Shown here piece after piece: positions 8,516-43,172 of a stretch of 64,000 bases of DNA. Both the position numbers and the translations under genes were made by a program. Under the pieces are notes generated by a model. That model was not told the DNA's origin. It did no database searches and saw nothing but the letters and a program-made list of their open reading frames with translations. The stretch is taken from positions 1,088,001-1,152,000 of the forward strand of contig CP084166.1 in assembly GCA_021513695.1 (NCBI GenBank), written 5' to 3'. How positions within the stretch are numbered: the stretch's first letter is position 1; every line of letters starts with the position of its first letter. This stretch comes from Candidatus Heimdallarchaeum aukensis (GTDB lineage: Archaea; Asgardarchaeota; Heimdallarchaeia; Heimdallarchaeales; Heimdallarchaeaceae).

Positions 8516-8812
8516 ACTTATAAATCAACAAAAAAAAATGAATATAAAAGTTTAAACATCTAGACATGACTTTTTTCTTTTTCTTTTTAACGACATAAAC
8601 TAAATAATTACTAACCATCACCCATTTTACACTGAAAAACAAGGTGTGGAGCATTTAATAGACAAAAAAGATTACCATAGTGCTGTTTAGTAGTTATTCT
8701 TATTAAAAAATAAATTGGATAACAATATTATTCAGATTATATCTTGTTCGTTGAATACAAAATATTTTTATTATTACTTCTATCTAACTCCAAAAAAAGA
8801 AAAAGAAGTTTT

Positions 8813-10117
8813 TTAGGTTGCTATACGTAATTTTGTTTTACAAGTTGGGCAAGTTCCTTTTTGAATAATCCATTGATAGAGATGATTTTTGTGGAAAATA
8901 TTATCACAAGAAGGACAACGAATAGAATTCTTAAGATTATTTATGCTTTGGAAGCAAATACTACATTTAGGTTTCATTTGAGACGTACCAACAATTCTAA
9001 AATCTTTTGGAATCGAAGAAAAGTCCACTCTAATAGCGTTCTCAGGTGCGTATTCTGCTTTTTTATATTTTATAGAAGGATAAGACTCAAAACTTTGATA
9101 CTTCTTATTCTTTCTTTTTCTAAGTACAATTGATACAATTATAACAGAAATAACTAGAAATGGTGGTCCAGCATAAAGCACTATTTTCAGAAATATTACT
9201 AAAATACTCAAAAAAGACAAAAATACATCACTTTCATACCATTTTTTAATTTTGAAACTATAATCTTTTCCAAAATCAATAGGTATAGAAAAAATAGAAC
9301 TTTTTACTTTAACAAAGAATAATCTTACAATGTTCAATTCTGTAGCATGATCATAAAAAAGCATTATTGAAGCAAAAGAAGAGGAGTTCGAGTATGTTTC
9401 ATTAAAACTAATAGAAAACCATTCAGCTTTTTGAATACTTTCAGAAAGCTTTAATGAAGCAGAAATCGACGATACTGGTCCTTGATAGGTTTCAGAAAAA
9501 ATTGCATTATTAGATTGATCACACACCATTATATCCAAATTCGAAATATTTTTTCCATAAAAATTAATGTTTACATATAGTTTTTTTAATTCAGTAAAAT
9601 GGTCTGGAATTCTTTCTAAACTAAAGTATAATCGGTTTGTCTGTGCTAAGTCTATAAAAGAGTTATAAGTCCAGATTATAGGTTCAGTGAGATTCAAGTT
9701 CCATGAAAAAACAATTTCCTGAACAAATTTATTAACAAATTGTAGTATATAAATTCCAGGTTTTAATTCTTCTGTAATTAAAAAGTGCTTTTCTTTGTCT
9801 CTAGCTGTTATTAACCAATTATTTAGATTTTGCATATCTTTTTCATGGATTAATAATATACCAAGTCCAGTGTAATCATCATCTAATATAATTTCTCCCC
9901 ATTCACCAACTATAACTGAAATTTCGAGAGTTGCAGGTTCATCTAAATAGACATAATACTCTGTTTCTGAGAATGTATCATCTAGTTTCAAAGAAAAAGA
10001 TGAAGAATTCGATTCTTTTTTAATATAATCTGTAGTTCTTTCTGAAATAGCATAAGTACAAAAAAAGTAAGAAGAAAAAAGAACTAATAGTACTAGCAAA
10101 GTAATTTTCTTTTTCAT
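8813..10117 (-). CDS. type-I membrane protein with cytoplasmic RING/PHD-like cross-brace zinc finger
   Basis: It has a signal peptide (MKKKITLLVLLVLFSSYFFCTYA), a ~270-aa ectodomain, one long TM segment, then a KR-rich stop-transfer and the motif CSIC-x12-CPSC-x4-HKNH-x10-CPTC. That is eight Zn ligands with RING-like spacing. Its start overlaps the stop of the upstream vWA gene by 4 nt. Confidence 0.6.
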   Translation of the reverse strand: MKKKITLLVLLVLFSSYFFCTYAISERTTDYIKKESNSSSFSLKLDDTFSETEYYVYLDEPATLEISVIVGEWGEIILDDDYTGLGILLIHEKDMQNLNNWLITARDKEKHFLITEELKPGIYILQFVNKFVQEIVFSWNLNLTEPIIWTYNSFIDLAQTNRLYFSLERIPDHFTELKKLYVNINFYGKNISNLDIMVCDQSNNAIFSETYQGPVSSISASLKLSESIQKAEWFSISFNETYSNSSSFASIMLFYDHATELNIVRLFFVKVKSSIFSIPIDFGKDYSFKIKKWYESDVFLSFLSILVIFLKIVLYAGPPFLVISVIIVSIVLRKRKNKKYQSFESYPSIKYKKAEYAPENAIRVDFSSIPKDFRIVGTSQMKPKCSICFQSINNLKNSIRCPSCDNIFHKNHLYQWIIQKGTCPTCKTKLRIAT

Positions 10118-12276
10118 TTTTTAGCTCCATTTTGTTTTAATATTAATGCACTTAAACTTATGAAACTTATTAGTATAACAAGAAATTGGAAGTCTGCTGT
10201 TACACCGTAATAATGTTCAAAAGGTTCATTCTTACTATCAAGGTTGAAAGAAACAAATATCTCACCTTCATGATATGAAGGATAGATTAGAACAAAGCAT
10301 TCGTCCTCTGGTAAAAGTACTTCAACAAATCCAGAAGCGATCTCTGTCCAATTCACGTCGTAAATAATAATTTTCATTTCTACATACTCTGAATCGGCTA
10401 ATATAGTTCTCTGCTCGCTGAGATTTAATCTATTATCGATGTACAGAAGAATTGATTGATTATATGTTAAAGTTATGGTCATATTCTGTTCAAATTCCAA
10501 GTTTATCTTTTCTACATTGTAAATATTAACATCGATTGCAATGTTTGTCCAAATTTTTATCTTGTAGAGAGAAAGAGATGAAAGACTCAAGTTGATGAAA
10601 TCTTGGCCTGTTTTTTCATAAACTATTTCTCCTTTCTTAACATCTAAACAAATAATATTTACTGGAGATTCTGCATCAATGAGCCCAATTGTACTATTTT
10701 CTTTAGCTTCTAGATAGAATATGGTACTTTGGTTTTCATAAAGATGGAATGTGAATCGCTCATTTGGTAAAAGATTCAAGTACTCAACATTTTCTCCTAA
10801 AGGAGCTGTATATATGCCTGTTACAATATCATTACCTAGATAATCTTCGGTGTAAATATAATAACTCAGTAGCTCATCTTCATCATCATATTTTAATGAT
10901 AAAATAAAGGTATCACCAGATTGATTGGTAGCTTGAGCAATAACCCAAGTAAGATTGTCATTATAACGGTAAAAAACTTCAACAAAAGGTACTCGGGAAA
11001 CATCTAAAACCTCAACTATGATATTAACATACTTTTGTTCAGTGTTGAAATCTTCAGTGTAAGAAGCCCAAGCTCTTATTTCAGGTGGTAAATCATCAAC
11101 TAAGACTCGAAAAACTTTTTCAATTGTTTGAGTAGATGAAGTATCACTTTCAATTGTTAAATAGGTAACAGTAAGGAATATTTTAAGAGCTTTCTCAACA
11201 GAGTAAGTCTCGATGAAATATTTAATTATTCTTGGTAGATCAGCAGTTGAAGGAAATTCTTCTGTACCAATTCTGACATAGGTTCCATGAGTAATTTCAG
11301 CACCTAAACTTAATCTTTCAATAGTCAATTCATCTGAACCTTTCGCTGCAACAGTACACAAAATAAACTTTTCTTCAGCTAATTGTTCATACAAGTTTTG
11401 TAAATCTCTTGTAGAAACCTTTATTCCATCATCTCCAGCTTCATCAGTAATTAAGACAATAAGATTAGGAACATCCTCTCTCCAATCCATTTGATACATA
11501 GCCACCCATAAAGCATCACCCCAAGGTTCAATAGAGCCAGAAGCTTTCGTTTTTTTCAATTTTTTAACGATTTGTTGAACATCAGAGGTTAAAGGTGTAA
11601 CTAGTTCTTCAAAAAGGTAAGGATTTTCTTTTTCTCCTCCGAAAAGAACTAGACCTATTCGTAAATCATTTATTGTATCTGAAAGTTCATTCACTACTGA
11701 GATTAAGTCAGAAGTTAAAGCTTCAATTTCATCGTCCATCGAACCAGATTGATCTAAAACAATAACTAAATCCAGAGATTCACTTATAGTTTCATTTGTT
11801 GTTACATTTACTTTATATTCTTTTGAAAGGTAGGTTTCATGTCCATTTAAAGTCCCTACAGTTTCAAAGGCACTGTTACTTTCTTCGCCACCATCACTCA
11901 CTAAAACGCCTAAATCATTCAAAGAGAAGTTTAATTTCACATCATAAGCTGCAGTTTCATTAATATTGGTTATATTGAAGTAAAATGAGAACTGATTTTG
12001 AGATTTTATACTTGGCATCTTATCTTCTCTGTGACTTTCTAAATTAGTATTGAAAGATACCTTAAGTTCAGGTTCATCTCTCTCTTGTGTAGTAGTAATT
12101 AAACTTTTGATTTCGTTTTCTGTATCACCAATATTTTCAATATTTCCATCAATCTTTATCCCGCCCAATATAAATCCAGCTATCAAAAGAAGGATTAATA
12201 CTTTTTTTAACTTACCAGTAATCATATATATCAAGATATCGATATACATACAACTATATAAAAGTTTCTCTTTCAC
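10114..12276 (-). CDS. membrane-anchored von Willebrand factor A (vWA) domain protein
   Basis: It has an N-terminal TM helix and a vWA domain with the MIDAS motif VLDQSGSMDD (DxSxS). The downstream T and D residues expected of the fold are present. A long beta-rich C-terminal region follows. Confidence 0.65.
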   Translation of the reverse strand: MKEKLLYSCMYIDILIYMITGKLKKVLILLLIAGFILGGIKIDGNIENIGDTENEIKSLITTTQERDEPELKVSFNTNLESHREDKMPSIKSQNQFSFYFNITNINETAAYDVKLNFSLNDLGVLVSDGGEESNSAFETVGTLNGHETYLSKEYKVNVTTNETISESLDLVIVLDQSGSMDDEIEALTSDLISVVNELSDTINDLRIGLVLFGGEKENPYLFEELVTPLTSDVQQIVKKLKKTKASGSIEPWGDALWVAMYQMDWREDVPNLIVLITDEAGDDGIKVSTRDLQNLYEQLAEEKFILCTVAAKGSDELTIERLSLGAEITHGTYVRIGTEEFPSTADLPRIIKYFIETYSVEKALKIFLTVTYLTIESDTSSTQTIEKVFRVLVDDLPPEIRAWASYTEDFNTEQKYVNIIVEVLDVSRVPFVEVFYRYNDNLTWVIAQATNQSGDTFILSLKYDDEDELLSYYIYTEDYLGNDIVTGIYTAPLGENVEYLNLLPNERFTFHLYENQSTIFYLEAKENSTIGLIDAESPVNIICLDVKKGEIVYEKTGQDFINLSLSSLSLYKIKIWTNIAIDVNIYNVEKINLEFEQNMTITLTYNQSILLYIDNRLNLSEQRTILADSEYVEMKIIIYDVNWTEIASGFVEVLLPEDECFVLIYPSYHEGEIFVSFNLDSKNEPFEHYYGVTADFQFLVILISFISLSALILKQNGAKK

Positions 12277-12305
12277 AGAGTATAAGAGAAATATATCAAA
12301 ATATC

Positions 12306-12320
12306 GAAATATTTATAACA
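12306..12320 (+). promoter_or_regulatory. putative archaeal TATA box/BRE for a leaderless transcript of the wHTH-ParA operon
   Basis: The sequence atatTTATAAca is centred about 26 nt upstream of the ATG at 12341. No SD is present. Confidence 0.3.
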
Positions 12321-12340: not shown

Positions 12341-12694
12341 ATGGAAAAACTACTGAACAGAGTAGTTGAGCTTTTAGAAGAGATCAACACAAAATTGAGT
12401 AGAATAGAAAAAAAATTAGAAGGAGAAGGAGAGATTAATATACCTTCTTCAATTGATTTATTAACAAAAATGACTAAAGCGCAAAGATTGACTTATTTTG
12501 CTGTACAAAAAATCGGAGAAGCGACTTGTTCAGAAGTAGCAGAAGAGACAGGAAGAAGTATGAATTTAGAGTCAAGGTATTTAAGGAGATTATATGAAAT
12601 GGGAGTTTTAGGAAGAAAACGTGTTCCTGTTTCAGATAAAGAAGAAGAATGGAAGGGGACAGAAGTGAAGTATTTCATAAAGGAGGAGAAGTAA
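12341..12694 (+). CDS. small coiled-coil + winged-helix DNA-binding protein
   Basis: N-terminal coiled coil (LEEINTKLSRIEKKLEGEGE), then a MarR/TrmB-like wHTH (LTYFAVQKIGEATCSEVAEETGRSMNLESRYLRRLYEMGVL). Confidence 0.5.
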   Translation: MEKLLNRVVELLEEINTKLSRIEKKLEGEGEINIPSSIDLLTKMTKAQRLTYFAVQKIGEATCSEVAEETGRSMNLESRYLRRLYEMGVLGRKRVPVSDKEEEWKGTEVKYFIKEEK

Positions 12695-13462
12695 ATGAAA
12701 ACAATAAGTGTTCATAGTTATAGAGGAGGAACAGGAAAAACAACTTTTTTGTTAAATATTGCAGGAGAGTTAGTAACAAGAGGAAAAAAAGTTTTAGCTA
12801 TAGACTTTGATTTAAGAGCACCAGCATTTCAATCTTATTTTAAAATTGATAAACTGAACTATTTGAGTGACTACCTGTTAAATAAAAAGCATTTAGAAGA
12901 AGTTATTGTTCAAGCAGAAGAAAGAGGAAATGGAAGAATAGATTTGATTTTTTCATCTATGGAATTTTTAAAGCAACATTCAAAACAAAGAGATAAGCTT
13001 GTGAGAGATGATACAGTTTATCTTTCAAAGTTGTATCAATTGCAAAAAGAAGTAGAAGAGAATTATGATTATTTATTAATAGATACAACCCCAGGTTTCT
13101 TTTATAGATCAATTGATGCAATGATGATATCAGATATTCTCTTGATTGTTTCTACACCAACCATTTCTAATGTTCAAGGATTAGAAGAGTTATGGAGAAA
13201 TGTCTATTCTATGCTTAAAGAAGATGTAAATATGTACTTATTAATTAATATGATAGAAAAAGAGGGAGAAAAAGTAGATAAAGAATTAGTAGAAAAAAGT
13301 ATAGAAGAGCTAAAAAAAATGGGGAAGAAATATTTTGCAAATAAGTTGATAGAAATACCAGATTATGGAGCAATGGGAGAAAGAATACATTCGTTTGAAC
13401 AAGAACCAAATAAAGAATTTCTAAATAAGATATCAGAATTAATAGATTTACTAAATGGATAA
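12695..13462 (+). CDS. ParA/MinD/SIMIBI-family P-loop ATPase
   Basis: Deviant Walker A YRGGTGKTT, a LAIDFD block and DTTPG (Walker B-like). Its start codon is adjacent to the stop of the wHTH gene. Confidence 0.65.
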   Translation: MKTISVHSYRGGTGKTTFLLNIAGELVTRGKKVLAIDFDLRAPAFQSYFKIDKLNYLSDYLLNKKHLEEVIVQAEERGNGRIDLIFSSMEFLKQHSKQRDKLVRDDTVYLSKLYQLQKEVEENYDYLLIDTTPGFFYRSIDAMMISDILLIVSTPTISNVQGLEELWRNVYSMLKEDVNMYLLINMIEKEGEKVDKELVEKSIEELKKMGKKYFANKLIEIPDYGAMGERIHSFEQEPNKEFLNKISELIDLLNG

Positions 13463-13475
13463 TAGAGGGAAATAG

Positions 13476-14840
13476 GTGAAAGGTGAGAAGGAAAAAGTAA
13501 AGGATTTAAAAAAGGTCCAAAGTTATTTGAAAGATTCTAAAAAAAATCTTTTACTTTTAAAAAGAGGAAAGAAGCCAAGAAGAAAGCTTAAGTTTCTCAT
13601 TAAAGATCACCTTTTTTTCACAATTTTATTCTTAGTCCTAATAGTAGGAGCAACAACTATTCCCCTCTTAATTAAAGAGAAGACAGATGATAAAATAGAG
13701 CAACCAGAAGAGAAAAAAGTAAAGGAAACGCTTACTCTTCTATCGACAAATTTCACAGATAGTGAAGGTATTCCTATAAACGAGTTAGGTAATTACACTG
13801 AATCATCTAAATTAATTATCCTCTCCACTCTTTCATTTTCAATGCTATATCTGGCAGGCTTTAACATAACAATTGAGCAGTTATCACTTCAGAAAGACAA
13901 TATTCTTTCAATTCTTAATGATGGTTCCTTTGTTCAGTTTAACAACAATAGTCAAAAACTTTCTATTTTCTATCAATTTTTGGGCTTATATGCTCTAATC
14001 CAGCTTCTATATGCAACAAAAAACACTGAGATCGGCTTTAGTATTGATATCTTATTCAACAGTTTGAACAAACAATTGAGGGAATATTACAATAAAGAAA
14101 ATAGGCTATTTATTGATAAAAACGCTACAGAAGCTTTTTTGGTTGACCAATCTTTAGCTTTGTGGGTTATTGCTATCACAATACTCTACTTTAATGTAGA
14201 ATCAATATTTGAATTTTATTTACCTGATATAATTCAAGATGTGTTATACAGTTTAAATCAAGATTATAGAAACGCAACAACTAATAAAATTGTGAGCTCA
14301 ATAAGCAATAAGACAAAAGAGCCAATACAATTAGAAGTGACTTCCTTTGATTTATTAATCTTAGTAGCAGCATTATCCAGAGTAAACTTGCTATATGATT
14401 ACTTCTTTGATAATGATTTAAGTAGTATAAATTTGTTTGAAAATATTATTAACCAGTATACAGATGAGAAACTGATAGTTTACGAAAAAAGATTTCTTAA
14501 TGGACATCTACTAATAAGAAATCAGTGTTTTTTTACTCTAACATCATACCTTTTACACTTAACAGTTACAGGAAATCAAAGTTTGAATGTTGTAACAACA
14601 AACTATTGGAAAGATAATAAGGGTTTCATTGAGGAAATTAATGCAAATAAGTTTTCAGCAGAAGCAAACTACTATGGATTGATAACTTTAGCTAGCCCAG
14701 AATGGAGTAAAGGAGAATATTTCTATATTCAAGACAATTATAAGGGAAATGCCGTAACCTCTAGAGCAGATGTGTTAACGATATTCGTATCATTAGTGAT
14801 AGTATTCATCATAAATAAGAGAAGAAAAAGAATAAAATAA
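13476..14840 (+). CDS. membrane protein (N-terminal TM, large extracytoplasmic domain, C-terminal TM + KRRKRIK tail)
   Basis: Hydropathy pattern only. It lies 13 nt downstream of the ParA-like gene. Confidence 0.45.
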   Translation: MKGEKEKVKDLKKVQSYLKDSKKNLLLLKRGKKPRRKLKFLIKDHLFFTILFLVLIVGATTIPLLIKEKTDDKIEQPEEKKVKETLTLLSTNFTDSEGIPINELGNYTESSKLIILSTLSFSMLYLAGFNITIEQLSLQKDNILSILNDGSFVQFNNNSQKLSIFYQFLGLYALIQLLYATKNTEIGFSIDILFNSLNKQLREYYNKENRLFIDKNATEAFLVDQSLALWVIAITILYFNVESIFEFYLPDIIQDVLYSLNQDYRNATTNKIVSSISNKTKEPIQLEVTSFDLLILVAALSRVNLLYDYFFDNDLSSINLFENIINQYTDEKLIVYEKRFLNGHLLIRNQCFFTLTSYLLHLTVTGNQSLNVVTTNYWKDNKGFIEEINANKFSAEANYYGLITLASPEWSKGEYFYIQDNYKGNAVTSRADVLTIFVSLVIVFIINKRRKRIK

Positions 14841-15527: not shown

Positions 15528-17165
15528 TTATGAATAGGCATTTTCATATTCTTCATTATTTGCAGTTAAGCATGAAATTCGGCTATAAATTTCTTCAAAA
15601 TATGATCGTGAATAAATAGTTTCAGAAATGTTATAGTGGTCTTGAATCACACTTAAAGCTTTGTAATAAATTTCCTGAATCAGAAAAAATATATTAACAT
15701 CAAACATGTTTTTTCCAAATGATTTTGGAATCTTATGTAAACCATGAAGTGGATTAATGCAAAACTCTGTATTGAGCTCTGTTAATCCAGACCAATCACT
15801 GTGACTAATACCAGCTGTTGGACCGTAAAACAAATCATAGTATTTTTTGTCTCCAATGTCTTCAGCCATTTTTCTAATACTAGTTTTATCAGCCCAACTA
15901 CCTGTGAGCTTTATTTTTATTAGATCTGATAAACCTTTTTCTGTTAAAATTCTATCAATTTGCTTAATTTTTTTTTCATATCCTTTTGGTTTATATTCCT
16001 CTAATTTCATTTTTTCATTCTTTTTTTCACCATAACCATATTCTTTAAACTTTGCATATAATTCTTCATCATCTTTTAGTAATAACCACTTTAAAACAAA
16101 ATATGTTTCTAAATGGTTTCTTAGTAGAATATAGCCAATAGATGGTTCTTGGAAAACTAAATAATTGGAAAAAAATTGAAAATTTGACGCTAGTCTAGAA
16201 ATAAGTCCAGCAACGATATCCTCTTTGGATGGATTATATATGTTAATTTTGATTTTTTTCCACATTTGATTGATTTCAAGATCAATACTATCAATCAAAT
16301 AAAGTCGCATTTCGGTAAGTTCATACCAAACTTGATTATATTCTTGAATATTTATCTTTCTCATGGAAGGAATACAAGGAGATAATAGTCCATTTTTCAT
16401 CCAGAATTTTTTTGACCAATTTTGATCAATAAAATTATCTAAAAATATAGCTGATATGCTTCGCGCCGATGATTCAACCAATTTTTTGTCTCCCTGCGGA
16501 TATACCGATAGTGCTTTAATAATCCTCGAACAAGTTTCTTGTTCTAACCCGATTATTTTTCTCTCTTCCATCATTCTCATTAGAACAAGTACTCGCATTA
16601 ATGATGCAAGATCACCATGACTCTCATATAACTCGATAATAAGATTAGAAATAACATCTAAAATCTCATCTTTTTGACTCTCGGAAAATGGTTTTACGTT
16701 AAATAAATAATTAAGAGAATCTTCTTGATAAATATTCATTATATCCTCAAAACGCGTTCTAATAAAAATAGACGCAAAAATGTGTTGAATTTCATTTAAG
16801 AAATCTTTTTGATGCTCTAAAGGAATATTAGAAAATTCGCTTACCAAGCCAAATGAGACAGCATCAGATTGAAGATATTTTTGAATTAATTGAGTAGTCT
16901 TTCTGTAAAGATAAAGAGCTTTATGATGATCATAAGTAGTGAATAAACTAGCTACCCAAAGAAACTCAGGAAGTTGTTTTTTTGACCAATCAACTTCTAT
17001 TATCTTATCCTCTCCTAACAGATATAAGAGGGGGGAAATCAAATGTTTCTTATATCGTTTGTGTTTTAAATACTTATCTTTTTTGTGTTTCATAAAAGAT
17101 ATTATTGAAAAATATAATATAAAATATTCGAAATTTAATTTTTTAATATTAATAAAATAAAGCAT
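15528..17165 (-). CDS. uncharacterised 545-aa protein (no recognisable motif)
   Basis: The ORF is long, with complex composition and no low-complexity bias. The true start may be the internal Met (MKHKKDKY) roughly 25 codons in. Confidence 0.5.
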   Translation of the reverse strand: MLYFINIKKLNFEYFILYFSIISFMKHKKDKYLKHKRYKKHLISPLLYLLGEDKIIEVDWSKKQLPEFLWVASLFTTYDHHKALYLYRKTTQLIQKYLQSDAVSFGLVSEFSNIPLEHQKDFLNEIQHIFASIFIRTRFEDIMNIYQEDSLNYLFNVKPFSESQKDEILDVISNLIIELYESHGDLASLMRVLVLMRMMEERKIIGLEQETCSRIIKALSVYPQGDKKLVESSARSISAIFLDNFIDQNWSKKFWMKNGLLSPCIPSMRKINIQEYNQVWYELTEMRLYLIDSIDLEINQMWKKIKINIYNPSKEDIVAGLISRLASNFQFFSNYLVFQEPSIGYILLRNHLETYFVLKWLLLKDDEELYAKFKEYGYGEKKNEKMKLEEYKPKGYEKKIKQIDRILTEKGLSDLIKIKLTGSWADKTSIRKMAEDIGDKKYYDLFYGPTAGISHSDWSGLTELNTEFCINPLHGLHKIPKSFGKNMFDVNIFFLIQEIYYKALSVIQDHYNISETIYSRSYFEEIYSRISCLTANNEEYENAYS

Positions 17166-17183
17166 AATTTTTATAATAGTTAA

Positions 17184-17576
17184 GTGAATAGTTTAGTTAT
17201 GAACAATAAAAAAATAAACAAGAATCAAGGAGAAAAACAAGAGTCTCAAGCTTTTACCATGTCAATTTTTTCTAGACGCTGGGGACATGAAGATAACTAT
17301 ATTGTATTTATGTGGGAAGAAGGTTGGAAAATATCATCACATAGTGGTATTGTTGAATGTAATAAAAGATTTGAACCAGGATTATATGACATACTTAAAC
17401 ATGACTCGATTAATTACCCTAAAAATCTTCCTCTATATTTCGAATGGTTTTGGGAAGAAGCTCAAGAACAAGGATTAAACCATGAAGAAATTCAAGAAGG
17501 ATTGACAGAACTTACTAACTGGATAAACAGATGTGAAATTTCAACTCCTTCAAAAGGAATATTTGAAAGATTTTAA
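17184..17576 (+). CDS. hypothetical 130-aa protein
   Basis: ORF only (W-rich, acidic). It is divergent from the 545-aa gene. Confidence 0.35.
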   Translation: MNSLVMNNKKINKNQGEKQESQAFTMSIFSRRWGHEDNYIVFMWEEGWKISSHSGIVECNKRFEPGLYDILKHDSINYPKNLPLYFEWFWEEAQEQGLNHEEIQEGLTELTNWINRCEISTPSKGIFERF

Positions 17577-17670
17577 AATTTGCATGTAAAATCAAAGGCT
17601 ATATTAGACAACATAAAATGATGTCTCCATATGATTGCTAAGATTGACACAATATATAAAAAGAATTTTT

Positions 17671-19815
17671 CTAATTTAAATTACCTAAGAATTCTAAAAA
17701 AGCTAAAAATTCAGTATTTTTATTTTTAATTAATTTTATAACTAAATTGAAACATTCTTCAAATGTCATATCTTTCCAGTCGTCTTTTTTGAATTTTGTT
17801 ACTGTCTTTTTAATCATACCTTCTAAATCATTCTCCCAAGAGAAAATATTGTAATTCTTTGCAAAACTAATAATCTCCTTTTTCCTTTCTTGTATATTAG
17901 TTGTTTTTGAAGAAAAAATTTCATCTAAATTTATATTACACCGTTGTTTCAAAATTTTACTAATATAACTATTAGTCAAAGAATTTTTAGGTTTAAGAAA
18001 TGCATCAAAATCACATATTAAAACATACTTAATATCAAAGAAATCTGCTATCGATAAAGCCTTGGAAATATCACCGGTACCATCAATTGAAATAACATCC
18101 CAATTTAAGAAATTCGTGCTTGAAAGATTAAGTTCTTTTTGAATATGATGATTCTCCAGAACAGAGAATAAAGTTGTAACAATTTTATTGTCATATGTTC
18201 CTTCAACAAAAATAACATTGGAAGCAAAAAATATGCTTTTTATGTTAGGATCCAAGAGAAAACGATTATAACGCTCTTCATCTTTAAGTCCTTCAAGAAA
18301 AGATCTTAAATATTTAATCTGACTTCCAGTTTTTGTTTTTAAACATCGAAGAATTGAATATAGAAGTTCATTAGATATCAAATCAGGACTATGAGTGACA
18401 ACTAAATAAGAATGCTCATTATCTTGTTTAATATAATTACCAAGTTTCTTTCTAAAAGAAGGATGAAGAGTTTTACCAGGTTCATCTAATATTATAGTAT
18501 CAGCTTCAAATCCATAAATGGAACATAAAACCATTAAAATCTCATAAGCTCCTCCAGGCGAGCAATTTAATCTAAAAGCTTTATTATTTTGCAAGTCGTG
18601 AAATTGAATATCAGGACGTTTACCTGTTAATACTGCACCTTCATCTAATTTAATAGAATAGGAGTTTTGTTGAGAATAAGAAGAATCAGGTTCAATTAAG
18701 AGAACAGGAGCTTTTTTTTCATGAACCTTTTCGTCAACAAGGACAATGTTAAAATTATATTTTTCTTCAGTCATAGTTTTGAAATGTTCTCTGATACGTT
18801 CAAAAATTTCTTGCTCTTTGGGATTTGAACTCATTTTCTTTTGAAATAGTGCATATTTGATTCTTTCAAGAGTTAGTACATTTGTAATGTTTTCTCTCCA
18901 AGGATAACTAAAACCATTTTCTAATAATCCTCTATCTTCTCTTAAAATAACAACTTTTTGTCTAATGATTTTTGAAATAAAATTGCCAAAATATTTGTAG
19001 TAATTATAAATTTCAATTTTATAACCCATTTTTCGAAGCAAAATTCTAAAATCTGCAGATAAATTATGAAGTTCAGGTAAAAAATCAATATTACTGAAAT
19101 CTAATTCAGATAAATATAAAATTAAGGCTTTTTCAAATATATATTGAAAAAAAATATTTTTTAGAAAATCTTCATTATTTTTAACAAGTTCTTTAATATC
19201 TTCTCCAGGATATAAATCATTAAAGGATTTGACGAAAGAAGTAATATTTCGAAAATCTAGATATTGATTTTTACTTAATGTTAAAATTTCATCTAATTTT
19301 TTCTCTTTGTCAACTAAAATAATTATATTTGTTGAAGGATTACTTAAGTAAATGTTTAAAGATTCATTAAATGAAAGTATTAAAAAATATTTTAATCTCT
19401 CAGGATTGTTGCTTTCAGAACAAAAGCCTATTGTTAAATCAGAAAAAGAATCCTTGAGAAAATTCTCCCAATTGTTAAAGAAAGAATAGATTAATGCTCT
19501 ACCGAATTCTTGATCTGAACTTAAATGCATTGAACAAAAAGATAAGACAAGAAATTTACGTAAAAAAATACGTTCATCTTCACTTAGTTCAAAGGTTAAA
19601 TAAATTTTAGATTGAGTTTTGGTGTCCCAAAAAGGAAAATAAGACCAATCTAAGTTAGAGGTTGCAGAGTTGGATAATATAAAATCAATTATTCTAACAA
19701 GATTAGATTTTCCAGAACCATTCTCGCCAACAATAATAGACTTTTGATTAAGATTTATTTCTTGTTCTTCAGAATAAGAAAGAAAGTTCTTGATATAAAT
19801 CTTCTTAAGAATCAT
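17671..19815 (-). CDS. OLD-family / PARIS-like nuclease: N-terminal ABC-type (AAA_15/21) ATPase fused to C-terminal Toprim domain
   Basis: Walker A IVGENGSGKSNL near the N terminus, Walker B IILDEPG, an H-loop VVTHSPDLI, then a Toprim region with VFVEGTYD (Glu) and LICDFDA (DxD). Length is 714 aa. Confidence 0.7.
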   Translation of the reverse strand: MILKKIYIKNFLSYSEEQEINLNQKSIIVGENGSGKSNLVRIIDFILSNSATSNLDWSYFPFWDTKTQSKIYLTFELSEDERIFLRKFLVLSFCSMHLSSDQEFGRALIYSFFNNWENFLKDSFSDLTIGFCSESNNPERLKYFLILSFNESLNIYLSNPSTNIIILVDKEKKLDEILTLSKNQYLDFRNITSFVKSFNDLYPGEDIKELVKNNEDFLKNIFFQYIFEKALILYLSELDFSNIDFLPELHNLSADFRILLRKMGYKIEIYNYYKYFGNFISKIIRQKVVILREDRGLLENGFSYPWRENITNVLTLERIKYALFQKKMSSNPKEQEIFERIREHFKTMTEEKYNFNIVLVDEKVHEKKAPVLLIEPDSSYSQQNSYSIKLDEGAVLTGKRPDIQFHDLQNNKAFRLNCSPGGAYEILMVLCSIYGFEADTIILDEPGKTLHPSFRKKLGNYIKQDNEHSYLVVTHSPDLISNELLYSILRCLKTKTGSQIKYLRSFLEGLKDEERYNRFLLDPNIKSIFFASNVIFVEGTYDNKIVTTLFSVLENHHIQKELNLSSTNFLNWDVISIDGTGDISKALSIADFFDIKYVLICDFDAFLKPKNSLTNSYISKILKQRCNINLDEIFSSKTTNIQERKKEIISFAKNYNIFSWENDLEGMIKKTVTKFKKDDWKDMTFEECFNLVIKLIKNKNTEFLAFLEFLGNLN

Positions 19816-19961: not shown

Positions 19962-20038
19962 GACCGGGTAGTCTAGCTTGGTACGATACATGCTTGGGGT
20001 GCATGTGATCCTGGGTTCGAATCCCAGCTCGGTCACCA
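19962..20038 (+). tRNA. tRNA-Pro (anticodon GGG), CCA encoded
   Basis: Cloverleaf: acceptor GACCGGG/CTCGGTC, anticodon stem CATGC/GCATG with loop TTGGGGT, T arm CTGGG-TTCGAAT-CCCAG, discriminator A, then CCA. Confidence 0.8.
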
Positions 20039-31298: not shown

Positions 31299-32559
31299 AT
31301 GAAAGAAAAAATGAGTAGAAAGGTGTGGCGAACTGAGGAAATATGGGTGAAGGATTCGATCACTCTAAAACAGTTGGCACACAAGGTAAAAAACTTGTAT
31401 AATCAAGCAAATTATATTATTAAGTATCAGTTAAGAAAAAGTAAATATTTCACAAAAGAGTTTGAACTGATGAATATTTTAAGGTATCACCCGACTTACA
31501 CAGCTTTACCTGGTCATACGGCACAACGGACGATAAAGTTTCTATGTTTAGCGTGGAAAGGGTATTTTAGGTCTTTAGAAGAATGGAAAAAGGAACCAGA
31601 AAAGTTTAACGGTAAACCCTGTCCTCCAAGATATAAGAAGAAAGAAGGACTTGCTATAATCTATTTTACTAACTCTCAAGTGAAAATTAAAGAAGAAAAA
31701 GAACAAGAAAAAGAAAAATTTTTTATCTCTTTCCCTAAACGTGTAGGACTAAAGATAGTTACAAGACTGTCTCCTTCAACGAAAGTGAAGTTTGCCCGTC
31801 TCATACCTATGGGGACGAAGTTTAAATTAGAGATAGTTTACGAGAAAGAGGTAGAAGAACAAAAAAAAACGACATGCAGAAAGAGTTCTAGCTCTTGATC
31901 TGGGAGTGAATAATTTAGTCGCAGGTTTAACCACTATTCCAGGTGAAAAAGGTTTTCTGATAAATGGTAGACCCATTAAAGCTGTTAACCAGTGGTTTAA
32001 TAAACGTAGGGCAAAGTTACAGTCAATCTATGACAAGCAAGGATTAACCACCTGGGGAAGAAAAATGTTTCAACTCCAGTTAGAACGAATGTGTAAAATC
32101 ACCAACTATTTCCATAAAGCAAGTAGAAAAATAGTAGACTATTGTTCAGAAAAAAACATTGATACGATAGTTATAGGTTACAACCCCCGATGGAAACAAG
32201 AAGTGATTATGGGTAAAAAGAATAATCAAACCTTTGTTTTTATACCCTTCAAATCGCTAATTGACAAAATCACTTACAAAGCAGAAGAAAAAGGAATAAA
32301 AGTTCTTCCTACCGAAGAGTCCTACACCTCTGTCTACAGTTTCTTGGATAATGAAGAGATAGCTTTCCACCTCCATTATGCTGGTAAAAGAATCCATCGT
32401 GGACTATTTATCAGTACCAGAGGATTAAAAATTAATGCTGATATCAACTCTGCAGGTAATATCGGTCGCAAAGTATTCCCCACGTTATTCTCTGTTATGT
32501 CTAACTACGGGATAGTCTGGGGTGCAGTGGTTCACCCCGTCCGTTGGAAAATAAGTTAG
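31299..32559 (+). pseudogene. tnpB: tnpB (RuvC-like RNA-guided nuclease family), frameshifted in an A9 run near 31860
   Basis: Split across two ORFs (199 aa and 217 aa). RuvC-I ALDLGVNNL is visible in copy 2, and the RuvC-I region is at the frameshift in copy 1. RuvC-II is EESYTS and RuvC-III is NADINSAGNI. No CxxC...CxxC zinc finger lies between RuvC-II and RuvC-III. Confidence 0.6.
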
Positions 32560-37006: not shown

Positions 37007-38029
37007 CTATTTTTTCTTTTTCATCAAAATCCATGAAGTCAATGAAAGTAGTATTAGAGAGAAAATAGCACCAATGAACGGAAATGAAGCACTCTCTGCT
37101 AAATTTTCTGGATTTTGAAGTGCATAAATATCATATTCAATTAATGAAATATATGAAGTTAATCCAAAAGCTGGTAACAATGGTGACAAAGAAGCAATTT
37201 TCGCTCCTGTTTCGCTCACAATCTGACTTATTACATTTGCATCAAATTGTGGTTGAACAACAATAGTTTTCACATTTTCTTCTTTCATCTCATTTATTAC
37301 ATTCTGTATATGCTCGGGACTGGGCTCTGTTTCATGTTGTTCTTCAATTATTGCAACTCTTTCAATACCTAAAAGATCAAAAAGATACATAAAAGAGGGG
37401 TGATGTACAACAACTTTCATTCCTTCAACTTCAGGTCTGTATTCATCATTTATTCTTTTTATTAAGTCATCAAGATCATACAGATAGTTATCTCTATTAG
37501 AGAGGTATTTTTCTTCATTTTCAGGGTCTAAGGAAATAATTGTTGTAGTAATATTTTTCACAAAACTTTTTGCATATATTGGACTCATCCATACATGAGG
37601 ATTAAGAAAACTCTCATCTGCTGCAGGATCCTCTCTCATTATACTCTCATTAGCCAATGTAATAACTACCAAATTAGGATTATCTTCTAATATTGAATCC
37701 ATAGCTGAAGAAAGCCAAGATTCTAGTCCTTCTATCCCTAAACGTATGAGAACATCTGCTTCTGAAAGCAATTCTCGTTCTTGAGTAGTCATTTCATATG
37801 TATGAGGATCTTCAAGACCAGAAACAATAGAGATAGGAGTGAACAAACCTTTCCCAATTTCATAAGCCCAATTTTGTACTATACCTATAGTTGTAACGAC
37901 GTTTAAAGTGTCATTAGGGTCAAATTCTTGTTTTTGCAGTGCTAAAGCGAGATTCCTCTCAGTATTAAGATTTGCGAACATTAACGCTGTGAAGAATAAG
38001 AGAAAAGCCATCATTCTTTTTTTATTCAT
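37007..38029 (-). CDS. metal ABC transporter substrate-binding protein (ZnuA/TroA family), membrane-anchored
   Basis: Cluster-9 SBP blocks (VVTTIGIVQNWAYEIG, DPHTYEMT, NPHVWMSP) and a C-terminal TM helix + KKKK tail. It is divergent from the DtxR-permease-ATPase operon. Confidence 0.7.
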   Translation of the reverse strand: MNKKRMMAFLLFFTALMFANLNTERNLALALQKQEFDPNDTLNVVTTIGIVQNWAYEIGKGLFTPISIVSGLEDPHTYEMTTQERELLSEADVLIRLGIEGLESWLSSAMDSILEDNPNLVVITLANESIMREDPAADESFLNPHVWMSPIYAKSFVKNITTTIISLDPENEEKYLSNRDNYLYDLDDLIKRINDEYRPEVEGMKVVVHHPSFMYLFDLLGIERVAIIEEQHETEPSPEHIQNVINEMKEENVKTIVVQPQFDANVISQIVSETGAKIASLSPLLPAFGLTSYISLIEYDIYALQNPENLAESASFPFIGAIFSLILLSLTSWILMKKKK

Positions 38030-38117
38030 TTGTTTTACCTCCGATTTACGACTCTTCGTAAATATTTCAATAAAACAAAATTTATAAACTTTACTTTATT
38101 TCAATTTATTAGAAAAG

Positions 38118-38573
38118 GTGAAAAGCTTGATCTTAGAAGATGATCAACAGATAGATATTTCTATCAATGAAAAAATAATTCTAGATTTTCTCTATCGCTG
38201 GATTCGTCCTATTCGCGTAGGAGACCTGAAAGATTATTTGAATGTTAAACATTCTACACTTAATTCACAGCTTCAAAATTTAGAAGAAAAACAACTGATT
38301 AGATGGAAAAGATATGGTAGTGTAGAACTTACAGAAAAGGGAAAGAAGTATTCATCTCATTTAACTCGTCATCACAGGATTTTAGAACTATTTCTTGTTG
38401 AAACTCTTTCCATTTCTATATCTGAAGCACATGAGATTAGTACAGAGATAACTCCTGTGGCTAGTTGTAAGTTTATTCAACACATAGTCCAACGATTTGG
38501 TGAACAAGAAAAATGTCCTTGTGGGAATGAAATCCCCAAGATTGAGGGTAAATGTTCAATTGGAGGGGTCTAA
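38118..38573 (+). CDS. DtxR/MntR-family metal-dependent transcriptional repressor
   Basis: wHTH then HLTRHHRILELFLVETL, the dimerisation/metal-site helix typical of DtxR. Confidence 0.65.
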   Translation: MKSLILEDDQQIDISINEKIILDFLYRWIRPIRVGDLKDYLNVKHSTLNSQLQNLEEKQLIRWKRYGSVELTEKGKKYSSHLTRHHRILELFLVETLSISISEAHEISTEITPVASCKFIQHIVQRFGEQEKCPCGNEIPKIEGKCSIGGV

Positions 38574-42860: not shown

Positions 42861-43172
42861 TCATTCTGTTATACATTCTGCTTCAGGAATAATTATCCAA
42901 GCAATAACATATGCTATAAATAATGATGTCCCACTAGCAAAAAAAAGCAATATTGCCAGCAATCTAACCAATGAAACATCCATATTAGAATAGATCGCAA
43001 GTCCAGAACACACTCCGCCTAGTACTTTATTGTTAGCACATCTAAATAATTTATTTGATTGAGGGTAATAAGTCGAAGATGGAACGGTTTGCTCTTCTTC
43101 AAATTGGCGCCCACATTTTTGACAAAACAATGACCCCGGGGGGTTATCTGTACCACATTGTTCACAAATCAC
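42861..43172 (-). CDS. zinc-ribbon + PspC-domain membrane protein
   Basis: N-terminal CEQCG...CQKCG ribbon, then a PspC motif (NKVLGGVCSGLA-Y-N-DV-LVRLLAILL) and a TM helix. Confidence 0.6.
   Translation of the reverse strand: MICEQCGTDNPPGSLFCQKCGRQFEEEQTVPSSTYYPQSNKLFRCANNKVLGGVCSGLAIYSNMDVSLVRLLAILLFFASGTSLFIAYVIAWIIIPEAECITE

What the first reader, a model, noticed from the sequence alone, without database searches (positions are those of the whole stretch)
8813..12276. Operon pairing a membrane-anchored vWA (MIDAS) protein with a type-I membrane protein carrying a cytoplasmic RING/PHD-like cross-brace zinc finger (PA-TM-RING-like topology)
The two genes overlap by 4 nt (ATGA). The downstream protein has signal peptide, ~270-aa ectodomain, TM and KR stop-transfer, then CSIC-x12-CPSC-x4-HKNH-x10-CPTC. 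That is eight Zn ligands spaced like a RING or PHD cross-brace. This overall topology is that of eukaryotic transmembrane RING E3 ligases (PA-TM-RING/Goliath family). In an archaeon this suggests either a eukaryote-like ubiquitin-ligase module or a novel Zn-finger signalling anchor. The partner vWA protein (VLDQSGSMDD MIDAS) is also membrane-anchored with a large extracytoplasmic part.
Basis: partly seen in the sequence, partly recalled or inferred. Interest (0 to 1): 0.65.

Follow-up and report, generated by a model that had tools for sequence, protein, structure and literature searches.

The report
Membrane-anchored RING ligase with vWA partner
In a Heimdall-group Asgard archaeon, a surface protein with a metal-dependent adhesion (vWA) domain is co-transcribed with a single-pass membrane protein whose cytoplasmic tail is a genuine RING finger. 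The pair looks like an archaeal counterpart of eukaryotic receptor-type ubiquitin ligases, but its activity is untested.

Summary
The window is from Ca. Heimdallarchaeum aukensis. Two minus-strand genes overlap by ATGA.

- The upstream protein has a signal peptide, a vWA domain with a complete conserved MIDAS, and a C-terminal TM anchor.
- The downstream protein has a signal peptide, two beta-jelly-roll ectodomains, one TM helix, a basic stop-transfer, a 45-aa linker and a C-terminal finger: CxxC-x12-CxxC-x4-HxxH-x10-CxxC.

The finger is a RING, not a PHD finger or a double zinc ribbon.
- It passes the Pfam zf-RING_2 cut-off.
- A family profile hits Arkadia, RNF165 and RNF13 (E down to 4e-11).
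- An AlphaFold model (pLDDT 92) superposes on RNF165 at 1.5 A.
- All eight ligands and the E2-contact residues (Ile387, Trp416, Pro424, Lys427) are conserved in 23 orthologues.

The pair is tightly linked in about 22 Heimdallarchaeota species genomes. It always lies beside a divergent wHTH–ParA-like–membrane-protein operon, with two conserved 14-nt boxes between them.

The ectodomain is not a PA domain, so the protein is an architectural analogue of PA-TM-RING ligases, not a member. No ubiquitin-system gene lies in the window. E2s and ubiquitin are documented for Heimdall AB_125, which carries the pair. NCBI already labels the protein "E3 ubiquitin protein ligase".

Verdict: new variant of a known kind, moderately interesting.

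The parts
10114..12276 (-). vWA720 gene. The ORF is as listed, but the probable true start is the ATG at 12225 (703 aa). It encodes a type-I surface protein: signal peptide, N-terminal beta region, vWA/MIDAS domain, about 350 aa of uncharacterised beta-rich region, a C-terminal TM and a short basic tail.
11296..11772 (-). vWA domain (residues 169-327 of the 720-aa ORF). The MIDAS residues D175-x-S177-x-S179 (11740-11754), T243 and D278 are conserved in at least 95% of 23 orthologues. The 'DQSGSMxDE' motif resembles the integrin-beta MIDAS/ADMIDAS motif.
   Evidence: Pfam VWA E 5e-11; conservation; Integrin_beta below threshold in 9 of 17 members; integrin beta-6 alignment
10138..10194 (-). C-terminal TM anchor of vWA720, followed by the tail KQNGAKK. 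Orthologues have KRKKR, RKKQRK and similar tails.
8813..10117 (-). RING434 gene, encoding a type-I membrane protein with a cytoplasmic C-terminal RING finger. It overlaps the vWA stop codon by ATGA.
10046..10117 (-). Signal peptide of RING434 (residues 1 to about 24).
   Evidence: hydropathy; conserved in orthologues
9314..10006 (-). Ectodomain made of two beta-jelly-roll domains (residues 38-142 and 147-268). The fold resembles PPC/collagen-binding, GOLD and CBM domains. It matches no Pfam family and is not a PA domain.
9116..9229 (-). Single TM helix (residues 297-334), ending in the RKRKNKK stop-transfer.
8969..9115 (-). Cytoplasmic linker (residues 335-383). It is disordered in the model but carries a conserved short motif: PSxKY, then invariant Y356-x-P358, F366 and Y/F373.
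8822..8968 (-). RING finger (residues 384-432) of C4H2C2 type. The inferred site-1 ligands are C385, C388, H409 and H412. The inferred site-2 ligands are C401, C404, C423 and C426. The E2-contact residues I387, W416, P424 and K427 are conserved.
8792..8807 (-). T-rich run (TTCTTTTTCTTTTTTT) just after the RING434 stop codon. It is a plausible archaeal oligo-T terminator ending the two-gene operon.
   Evidence: read directly from the sequence; inference
12228..12241 (-). Box 2, CGATATCTTGATAT, at -16 to -3 of the vWA ATG. It is conserved at that place in about 20 genomes and is a candidate operator.
12293..12306 (-). Box 1, CGATATTTTGATAT, 35-48 nt upstream of the divergent wHTH117 start. It is conserved in about 20 genomes.
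12255..12263 (-). Conserved TATA-like element (TTTTATATA) between the two boxes, about 30-38 nt upstream of the vWA ATG.
   Evidence: alignment A7; inference
12341..14840 (+). Divergent three-gene operon that always neighbours the pair. It holds wHTH117 (12341-12694), a ParA/MinD-like ATPase (12695-13462) and TM454 (13476-14840), a membrane protein with a TM at each end. It may belong to the same system.

Best explanation
vWA720 and RING434 form a two-gene operon in Heimdallarchaeaceae that encodes a cell-surface receptor pair with a ubiquitin-ligase output.

Shown here
- Both proteins are type-I membrane proteins.
- vWA720 displays a complete MIDAS site outside the cell.
- RING434 displays two beta-jelly-roll domains outside the cell and a true RING cross-brace finger inside, with the residues RING E3s use to hold and activate E2~Ub.

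Inferred
- The two ectodomains work together, as a complex or on a common extracellular ligand bound through the MIDAS metal.
- The cytoplasmic RING recruits an Asgard E2~ubiquitin.
- It ubiquitylates lysines on nearby cytoplasmic tails: its own linker, the basic tail of vWA720, or other membrane proteins.
- This marks them for turnover or for ESCRT-type sorting, as eukaryotic receptor-like TM RING ligases do (RNF13/GRAIL, RNF43/ZNRF3, MARCH).
- The operon is probably controlled through two conserved boxes in the shared intergenic region, most simply by the divergently encoded wHTH protein.
For: RING identity
- Pfam zf-RING_2 scores 29.1 bits against a cut-off of 27.3, covering model positions 2-44 of 44. 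The finger alone scores 34.5 bits.
- A family profile against PDB sequences finds Arkadia at 3.9e-11, then RNF165, RNF24, EL5, RNF4, listerin, gp78, ZNRF3, RNF13 and HRD1.
- The AF2 model of residues 370-434 has pLDDT 92.3.
- All top-50 Foldseek hits are RING or U-box domains. RNF165 5d0i_B superposes at 1.5 A over 51 columns, TM 0.80.

Conservation
- All eight ligands are invariant in 23 of 23 orthologues.
- I387 is Ile in 22 and Val in 1. W416 and P424 are invariant. K427 is Lys in 20, Arg in 2 and Asn in 1.
- These four align with the Ile, Trp, Pro and Arg of Arkadia's CTIC...QWL...CPICR.
- The RING is 62% identical between the window and the other family members (the close relative H. endolithica set aside), against 24-26% for the ectodomain.

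Topology
- Hydropathy.
- The AF2 model shows a single TM helix at 297-340.
- Signal peptide, TM and basic cluster are conserved in orthologues.

vWA
- Pfam VWA E 5e-11.
- MIDAS D-x-S-x-S...T...D is conserved in at least 95% of orthologues.

Linkage
- The pair is adjacent on the same strand in about 22 species-level Heimdallarchaeota genomes, including loci where RING identity to the window is only 24-32%.
- In most loci the gap is 5 nt or less, or the genes overlap.
- The conserved promoter-region boxes stay with the vWA gene even where a 4.8-kb insertion separates it from wHTH (L021).

Ubiquitin system
- AB_125 carries the pair (L017).
- It encodes two E2-like proteins with putative catalytic Cys, and most Asgard genomes other than Thorarchaeota are reported to encode large parts of the ubiquitin-ESCRT system (PMC9192718).
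- An Asgard E1/E2/RING-E3 cascade has been reconstituted in vitro (bioRxiv 10.1101/2023.07.25.550441).
Against: - No biochemical data exist for this family.
- No Ub, E1, E2 or JAB gene lies in the 64-kb window. I could not scan the rest of the H. aukensis genome.
- The finger is atypical. Ligand 4 is Cys with a C-x2-C knuckle, and the spacing between ligands 4 and 5 is 4 instead of 2-3 (alignment).
- The same variant behind TM helices occurs in a Thorarchaeota protein (P0047). That lineage is reported to lack true ubiquitin (PMC9192718).
- A physical link between the two ectodomains is not shown. hhalign finds no shared domain, and synteny of the whole neighbourhood is conserved, so adjacency alone could reflect vertical inheritance.
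- Ca. H. endolithica has lost vWA720 and keeps only a truncated RING ORF, so the system is dispensable.
Confidence: 0.55

Rival explanations
1. The RING fold is real but does not act with ubiquitin. It serves as a zinc-stabilised docking module that ties the surface proteins to a cytoplasmic partner, for example the neighbouring ParA/MinD-like ATPase, the cytoskeleton or ESCRT proteins.
For: - The same finger variant is found in Thorarchaeota, which are reported to lack true ubiquitin.
- No ubiquitin-system gene is nearby.
- A ParA-like ATPase operon always lies next to the pair and appears to share its regulatory region.
Against: The four positions RING E3s use to contact and activate E2~Ub (Ile in CxIC, the helix Trp, the CPxC Pro and the basic residue after the last Cys) are conserved across the family. 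A pure docking role would not require that.
Confidence: 0.25
2. The finger is an E3 for a different ubiquitin-like modifier, such as a SAMP/Urm1-type or other Ubl with its own E2-like enzyme, rather than for canonical Asgard ubiquitin.
For: - The finger has atypical C4H2C2 ligands and spacing.
- It occurs in Asgard lineages with different ubiquitin-system content.
Against: - The closest profile and fold matches are all ubiquitin RING-H2 E3s that use UbcH5-type E2s.
- To my knowledge, archaeal SAMP/Urm1 conjugation needs no RING E3.
Confidence: 0.1
3. The finger is a PHD-like or FYVE-like reader that binds a peptide or lipid head-group at the membrane, not an E3.
For: - The ligand spacing C-x2-C-x12-C-x2-C-x4-H-x2-(C/H)-x10-C-x2-C also fits the PHD pattern.
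- There are weak Pfam PHD and C1 hits (E 0.04-0.005 on the isolated finger).
Against: - The PHD score is far below threshold, while zf-RING_2 is above it.
- The profile hits a PHD finger (WSTF) only at 1.2e-3, against 4e-11 for RING E3s.
- All top-50 structural neighbours are RING or U-box domains.
Confidence: 0.04
4. The eight ligands form two independent zinc ribbons (a double zinc ribbon), so there is no cross-brace.
For: Weak Pfam hits to DZR, Zn_ribbon_6 and Zn_ribbon_4/5 (E 1e-3 to 0.9). Some related Asgard proteins carry an extra DZR-like CxxC pair before the RING (P0021 and P0033).
Against: - All of those hits are below threshold.
- The high-confidence model has the beta-beta-alpha RING layout, with the central helix after H409/H412.
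- It superposes on RING domains at 1.1-2 A.
Confidence: 0.02

Closest known systems
RING-H2 E3 ubiquitin ligases (Pfam zf-RING_2), e.g. Arkadia/RNF111, RNF165/ARK2C, RNF38, EL5
   Same: - Eight Zn ligands, with a full-length profile match above the Pfam cut-off.
- The predicted beta-beta-alpha cross-brace fold superposes at 1.5 A.
- The Ile (CxIC), the Trp in the central helix, the CPxC Pro and the basic residue after the last Cys are all conserved.
   Different: - The ligand set is C4H2C2, not C3H2C3.
- The canonical His-4 position holds Ile, Val or Asn. An extra Cys three residues upstream of canonical Cys-3 forms a CPSC knuckle.
- The spacing between ligands 4 and 5 is 4. From my own knowledge, this spacing resembles the C4C4 RING of CNOT4.
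- The host is an archaeon.
PA-TM-RING ligases (RNF13, RNF167, GRAIL/RNF128, Goliath)
   Same: - The same order of parts: signal peptide, luminal or extracellular domain, one TM, basic stop-transfer, cytoplasmic RING.
- The RNF13 RING is among both the sequence and the fold matches.
   Different: - The ectodomain is two beta-jelly rolls, not a PA domain.
- The RING lies at the extreme C-terminus.
- The gene has an operon partner.
- This is an analogue, not a member.
Asgard archaeal soluble RING E3s of the E1/E2/E3 ubiquitin cascade (Helarchaeia operon; Caldiarchaeum cascade)
   Same: An archaeal RING finger in a lineage with ubiquitin, E1 and E2. Activity of such RINGs has been shown in vitro (bioRxiv 10.1101/2023.07.25.550441).
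   Different: - Those are small cytosolic proteins encoded inside Ub/ESCRT clusters.
- This one is a 434-aa type-I membrane protein, encoded with a vWA surface protein and far from any ubiquitin gene.
Integrin beta I-like / BatA-type membrane vWA proteins
   Same: - Extracellular vWA with a complete MIDAS, and a 'D-x-S-x-S-M-x-D-[DE]' motif as in integrin beta.
- A TM anchor.
- Weak hits to Integrin_beta, vWA_SIBA-E and BatA.
   Different: - Scores are below the family thresholds.
- There are no PSI, hybrid or EGF domains and no alpha-subunit partner.
- The C-terminal 350 aa match no known family.
Eukaryotic RING + vWA combinations (plant WAV3-type RING-vWA ligases; TFIIH Ssl1/p44). Recalled from memory, not tested.
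   Same: A RING finger functionally combined with a vWA domain.
   Different: In those proteins both domains sit in one cytosolic or nuclear polypeptide. Here they are on two proteins and on opposite sides of the membrane.

Membership tests
RING finger (zf-RING_2 / RING-H2-like E3) | Profile match above the curated threshold over the whole domain | tested here: met
   PF13639 scores 29.1 bits against a cut-off of 27.3, covering positions 2-44 of 44. The isolated finger scores 34.5 bits, E 2.5e-8. The precomputed Pfam label of the database protein is also PF13639.
RING finger (zf-RING_2 / RING-H2-like E3) | Eight Cys/His ligands with cross-brace spacing, conserved in relatives | tested here: met
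   C385, C388, C401, C404, H409, H412, C423 and C426 are invariant in 23 of 23 orthologues and in 42 wider relatives. The variant is C4H2C2, with a spacing of 4 between ligands 4 and 5.
RING finger (zf-RING_2 / RING-H2-like E3) | Beta-beta-alpha cross-brace fold | tested here: met
   AF2 pLDDT 92.3. The Foldseek top 50 are all RING or U-box domains. RNF165 superposes at 1.5 A with TM 0.80, and TRIM37 at 1.2 A. This is a prediction only.
RING finger (zf-RING_2 / RING-H2-like E3) | E2-binding and E2~Ub-activating residues (Ile in CxIC, helix Trp, CPxC Pro, basic linchpin) | tested here: met
   I387 is Ile in 22 and Val in 1. W416 and P424 are invariant in 23. K427 is Lys in 20, Arg in 2 and Asn in 1. 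They align with the Ile, Trp, Pro and Arg of Arkadia.
RING finger (zf-RING_2 / RING-H2-like E3) | Binds two Zn ions, binds an E2 and stimulates ubiquitin transfer | not testable with these tools
   This needs biochemistry.
RING finger (zf-RING_2 / RING-H2-like E3) | Ubiquitin, E1 and E2 encoded in the same genome | tested here: inconclusive
   None are in the 64-kb window. Two E2-like proteins with putative catalytic Cys are reported for AB_125 (PMC9192718), which carries the pair (L017).
PA-TM-RING ligases | Protease-associated (PA) domain in the ectodomain | tested here: not met
   There is no Pfam PA hit. The model shows two all-beta jelly rolls. The best fold matches are collagen-binding/PPC, GOLD, CBM and Vip3 domains.
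PA-TM-RING ligases | Signal peptide, single TM, then cytoplasmic RING | tested here: met
PHD finger | C4HC3 ligand pattern and a PHD profile match | tested here: not met
   Ligand 6 is His. Pfam PHD scores E 0.039 and 14.4 bits against a cut-off of 24. The WSTF PHD finger scores only 1.2e-3, against 4e-11 for RING E3s.
Double zinc ribbon (DZR) / Prok-RING_1 | Profile match above threshold | tested here: not met
   On the isolated finger, DZR scores 19.6 bits against 27.3 and Prok-RING_1 scores 20.4 bits against 29.1.
vWA domain with MIDAS | vWA profile match, plus D-x-S-x-S, Thr and Asp metal ligands | tested here: met
   PF00092 scores 43.5 bits against 23.8, and all 17 members match. D175, S177, S179, T243 and D278 are at least 95% conserved.
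Integrin beta I domain | Integrin_beta profile above threshold; PSI, hybrid and EGF domains; an alpha-subunit partner | tested here: not met
   PF00362 scores 21.9 bits against 24.8. Nine of 17 members match at E<0.01. No other integrin domains were found and there is no PDB sequence match outside the vWA domain.

The most novel reading that the evidence does not exclude
The pair is an archaeal prototype of eukaryotic receptor-type transmembrane RING ligases. An integrin-beta-like MIDAS adhesin senses an extracellular ligand or a cell contact. Its co-receptor answers by ubiquitylating membrane-protein tails, which the Asgard UEV/ESCRT machinery then sorts. If so, ubiquitin-dependent down-regulation of surface proteins predates eukaryotes.
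Probability: 0.2. Interest if true: 0.8.

Novelty: new variant of a known kind. Interest (0 to 1): 0.52.

Why it matters
Asgard archaea are known to encode ubiquitin, E1, E2, soluble RING E3s and ESCRT. What these systems act on is largely unknown.

A conserved, membrane-anchored, receptor-like RING ligase gives a concrete candidate for coupling the cell surface to ubiquitylation in the closest archaeal relatives of eukaryotes. It also offers a natural candidate substrate and partner, the co-encoded vWA protein.

The hypothesis can be tested with recombinant proteins. If it holds, the logic of eukaryotic TM RING ligases (RNF13/GRAIL, RNF43/ZNRF3, MARCH) existed before the endomembrane system.

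If the finger proves not to be an E3, it still defines a widespread Asgard C4H2C2 RING variant attached to membranes.

Tried and rejected
- **Shared domain between the two ectodomains.** BLASTP and hhalign of family alignments found nothing (probabilities 1% or less).
- **PA domain, PHD, DZR and Prok-RING membership.** Not met.
- **Anti-phage defence system.** PADLOC has no hit for vWA720, RING434, wHTH117 or TM454. The ParA-like ATPase gives only weak, generic ATPase hits.
- **NCBIfam names.** None were useful for the RING, TM454 or wHTH proteins.
- **vWA720 against PDB sequences.** The single sequence gave no hit. The profile gave only marginal vWA hits.
- **Bacterial-type promoter and terminator scan.** Uninformative, as expected for an archaeon.
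- **Ubiquitin-system genes in the window.**
  - Pfam scans of 39 ORFs (10 in the operon region, 29 further ones) found none. The precomputed Pfam labels for the neighbouring genes show none either.
- **Genome paper.** The Heimdallarchaeum genome paper and its supplements do not mention ubiquitin.
- **Calls that failed or fell short.**
  - The search for related loci with the 18-sequence alignment failed for lack of a conserved stretch and was repeated with full-length members only.
  - The profile search of the 5.8-billion-protein set returned few family members, probably because RING-word candidates saturated the prefilter.
  - The afdb50 fold library was unavailable, so I could not look for eukaryotic proteins with the same ectodomain.

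Full report
**1. What is there**

The window has about 30% G+C. The downstream protein is 100% identical to a protein of Candidatus Heimdallarchaeum aukensis, which NCBI names "E3 ubiquitin protein ligase". So the organism is an Asgard archaeon of the Heimdall group.

Two minus-strand ORFs occupy 8813-10117 (434 aa, here RING434) and 10114-12276 (720 aa, here vWA720). They overlap by the four bases ATGA.
- the MIDAS string VLDQSGSMDD;
- the N-terminal hydrophobic signals of both proteins;
- the C-terminal TM of vWA720;
- the TM followed by RKRKNKK in RING434;
- the finger C385-x2-C388-x12-C401-x2-C404-x4-H409-x2-H412-x10-C423-x2-C426.

The vWA gene more probably starts at the ATG at 12225 (MITGKLKK). 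Orthologues start at the equivalent place, and a conserved DNA box lies just upstream of it.

**2. The finger is a RING**

*Sequence evidence*
- Pfam zf-RING_2 matches from model position 2 to 44 of 44, at 29.1 bits for the whole protein (cut-off 27.3). The last 55 residues alone score 34.5 bits, E 2.5e-8.
- PHD, DZR, Prok-RING_1, C1 and the zinc-ribbon models all stay below their cut-offs.
- A profile of 28 relatives searched against all PDB sequences returns RING-H2 ubiquitin ligases almost exclusively: Arkadia 3.9e-11, then RNF165/ARK2C, RNF24, EL5, RNF4, listerin, gp78, RLIM, RNF38, ZNRF3, RNF13 and HRD1. The best PHD finger (WSTF) scores 1.2e-3.

*Ligand assignment*
- In the HMMER alignment, canonical Cys-3 falls on C404. 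The canonical His-4 position is Asn here and Ile or Val in relatives. H409 and H412 take the places of ligands 5 and 6.
- The family therefore uses the CPSC knuckle (C401, C404) as ligands 3 and 4, giving a C4H2C2 RING with a spacing of 4 between ligands 4 and 5.
- From my own knowledge, this spacing resembles the C4C4 RING of CNOT4.

*Predicted structure*
- An AlphaFold2 model of residues 370-434, built with 42 aligned relatives, has mean pLDDT 92.3. It shows the RING layout: a beta-hairpin followed by the central helix at 410-420.
- Foldseek against the PDB gives only RING and U-box domains in the top 50. RNF165 5d0i_B superposes at 1.5 A over 51 columns (TM 0.80), TRIM37 at 1.2 A and the Prp19 U-box at 1.1 A.
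- HRD1, gp78 and the PA-TM-RING ligase RNF13 are also in that list. E-values are modest because the domain is short.
- I could not read the model's coordinates, so ligand pairing was not measured directly.

**3. Conservation**

- An exhaustive HMMER scan of 1.84 billion representative proteins found about 20 full-length relatives at 24-32% identity.
- A scan of GTDB species genomes found 23 loci, all in Heimdallarchaeota MAGs, including the classical AB_125.
- In 23 full-length sequences all eight ligands are invariant.
- Also invariant are Q390, I392, R400, P402, S403, D405, K410, L413, W416 and P424.
- I387 is Ile in 22 and Val in 1. K427 is Lys in 20, Arg in 2 and Asn in 1.
- I387, W416, P424 and K427 align with the Ile of CxIC, the helix Trp, the CPxC Pro and the basic residue after the last Cys of Arkadia. 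From established RING-E3 structural work, these are the E2-contact and E2~Ub "linchpin" positions.
- Between the window protein and the other family members (the close relative H. endolithica set aside), the RING is 62% identical. The two ectodomains are 24-26% identical. Selection is therefore much stronger on the cytoplasmic finger.

**4. Topology and ectodomain**

- The full-length AlphaFold2 model (mean pLDDT 70) shows these parts:
  - an N-terminal signal helix;
  - two all-beta domains, at 38-142 (pLDDT about 90) and 147-268;
  - one continuous TM helix, 297-340;
  - a disordered linker;
  - the RING.
- Orthologues keep the signal peptide, often a Pro-rich stalk, one TM of 21-25 residues and a basic cluster. 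All five N-x-S/T sequons of RING434 lie in its predicted ectodomain. The 14 in vWA720 all lie between its signal peptide and its C-terminal TM.
- It is not a PA domain, and no Pfam or NCBIfam family covers it.

**5. The partner, vWA720**

- vWA720 has a Pfam VWA domain (E 5e-11, residues 169-327). A complete MIDAS (D175, S177, S179, T243, D278) is conserved in at least 95% of 23 orthologues.
- Its motif LDQSGSM-x-DE resembles the integrin-beta MIDAS/ADMIDAS string. Nine of 17 members hit Pfam Integrin_beta, but below threshold.
- The 350 residues after the vWA domain match nothing.
- All orthologues have a signal peptide. At the extreme C-terminus they have a TM followed by 4-7 mostly basic residues, preceded by a conserved H-Y-Y motif.

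**6. Linkage and context**

*The pair*
- In every locus with enough flank, the vWA gene sits immediately upstream of the RING gene on the same strand.
- In most loci the gap is 5 nt or less, or the genes overlap.
- A T-rich run follows the RING stop codon.

*The neighbourhood*
- The wider order is also constant: TM454 <- ParA-like <- wHTH | vWA -> RING -> AsnC-type, then Orc1/Cdc6 and further genes. Adjacency alone therefore cannot be separated from vertical inheritance.

*Points that speak for a functional unit*
- The translational coupling of the pair.
- Two conserved 14-nt boxes (YGATATNTTGATAY) and a TATA-like element in the divergent intergenic region. They are kept at the same relative positions in about 20 genomes whose proteins are only 30-38% identical. 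They are the only perfect copies in the 64-kb window.
- Box 2 lies between the TATA-like element and the vWA start codon, where archaeal repressors commonly bind. This is an inference.
- In L021 a 4.8-kb insertion separates wHTH from vWA, yet the box stays with vWA.

*A loss*
- In Ca. H. endolithica a deletion of about 5.3 kb runs from TM454 codon ~392 to RING codon ~14.
- It removed vWA, wHTH and ParA. The RING ORF is left without its signal peptide or promoter.
- The system is therefore dispensable, and that remnant is probably decaying.

**7. Ubiquitin system**

- No ubiquitin, E1, E2 or JAB gene lies in the window. I could not scan the rest of this genome.
- The literature reports that most Asgard genomes except Thorarchaeota encode ubiquitin-ESCRT components (PMC9192718).
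- The same paper reports that AB_125 encodes two E2-like proteins with putative catalytic cysteines. AB_125 carries this gene pair (locus L017).
- An Asgard E1/E2/RING-E3 cascade works in vitro (bioRxiv 10.1101/2023.07.25.550441).
- One caveat applies. The same C4H2C2 finger behind TM helices occurs in proteins labelled Lokiarchaeia, Freyarchaeota, Heimdallarchaeota and Thorarchaeota. Thorarchaeota are the lineage said to lack true ubiquitin.

**8. Explanation and rivals**

*Best-supported reading (confidence about 0.55)*
- The operon encodes a surface receptor pair whose output is a membrane-tethered RING E3.
- Shown: the domain identities, the topology, the conservation of catalytically relevant RING residues, and the gene coupling.
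- Inferred: that the ectodomains cooperate, that the RING recruits an Asgard E2~Ub, and that targets are nearby cytoplasmic tails destined for turnover or ESCRT sorting.

*Rivals*
- A RING used only as a docking module: 0.25.
- An E3 for another ubiquitin-like modifier: 0.1.
- A PHD/FYVE-like reader: 0.04.
- Two separate zinc ribbons: 0.02.

**9. Comparison with what is known, and novelty**

- The protein works like eukaryotic receptor-type TM RING ligases. It is not a PA-TM-RING member, because that family's defining PA domain was tested for and is absent.
- It is a member of the RING superfamily, though an atypical C4H2C2 variant.
- RING E3s in Asgard archaea are known, and NCBI's pipeline already labels this protein an E3 ligase.
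- In the searchable literature I found no description of a membrane-anchored Asgard RING family, or of its pairing with a MIDAS surface protein.
- I rate it a new variant of a known kind, with moderate interest. It gives the Asgard ubiquitin field a testable membrane-linked E3 with an obvious candidate partner.

Noticed in passing
window 12228-12241 and 12293-12306 (minus strand); the same relative positions in L005-L027: Two copies of a 14-nt box, YGATATNTTGATAY, lie in the divergent intergenic region between vWA720 and wHTH117, with a TATA-like element between them. They are conserved in about 20 genomes whose proteins are only 30-38% identical, and they are the only perfect copies in the window. 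They are a likely operator, perhaps for wHTH117. A role at the nearby replication origin is not excluded.
   Followed up: partly
window 12341-14840 (+): A conserved three-gene operon always lies divergent to the vWA-RING pair and about 4 kb from Orc1/Cdc6. It encodes a 117-aa winged-helix-like protein, a ParA/MinD-like ATPase with a deviant Walker A (YRGGTGKT; best NCBIfam match is the 'KGGVGR-motif variant AAA ATPase', below its cut-off), and a 454-aa protein with a TM at each end and no known family. It could be part of the same surface system or a SegAB-like segregation module.
   Followed up: partly
L002 9796-10030 / L007 (Ca. H. endolithica CP084167.1): A deletion of about 5.3 kb joins the 3' end of the TM454 homologue to codon ~14 of the RING gene. 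It removes vWA, wHTH and ParA and leaves a 403-aa RING ORF without a signal peptide. The remnant is probably a decaying gene.
   Followed up: yes
window 8969-9115 (RING434 residues 335-383): The cytoplasmic linker is predicted to be disordered, yet it carries a conserved short motif: PSxKY, then invariant Y356-x-P358, F366 and Y/F373. Its partner is unknown, and any link to UEV, ESCRT or E2 docking is speculative.
   Followed up: no
proteins P0021, P0028, P0030, P0033, P0047, P0050: The same RING variant (CxxC-x11-13-CPxC-x4-HxxH-x10-CPxC) sits behind TM helices in many other Asgard proteins. Some have signal peptides and large ectodomains, for example a partial sequence of 1864 aa from a Lokiarchaeia Ig-repeat protein. 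Named examples come from Loki, Thor, Frey and Heimdall lineages. Membrane-anchored RINGs therefore seem widespread in Asgard archaea.
   Followed up: partly
window 10138-10215 (vWA720 C-terminus) and orthologues: All vWA720 orthologues end with a conserved H-Y-Y(-x-G) motif, a TM helix and a 4-7 residue basic tail at the extreme C-terminus. This three-part layout resembles archaeosortase/exosortase-type sorting signals. I did not test whether it is only a stop-transfer anchor.
   Followed up: no
window 15528-19815 (-), tRNA-Pro at 19962-20038: A DUF5677 protein (PADLOC DitA, E 2e-31) and an OLD/GajA-like ATPase-TOPRIM protein lie next to a tRNA-Pro gene. This is a small defence islet. The corresponding place in H. 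endolithica holds a DDE transposase instead.
   Followed up: partly
window 31906-32559 (+) and 41850-42728 (+): Two TnpB-like ORFs carry OrfB_IS605 and Cas12f-like TNB domains. The first is short (217 aa) and probably truncated.
   Followed up: no
window 34046-36817 (-) and 37007-40367: A 923-aa LVIVD-repeat protein with a bacterial Ig-like domain lies next to a ZnuA/ABC-3/ABC-ATPase metal-uptake cluster that includes an iron-dependent-repressor-type regulator.
   Followed up: no
window 42861-43172 (-): A small protein combines an N-terminal zinc ribbon with a PspC domain.
   Followed up: no
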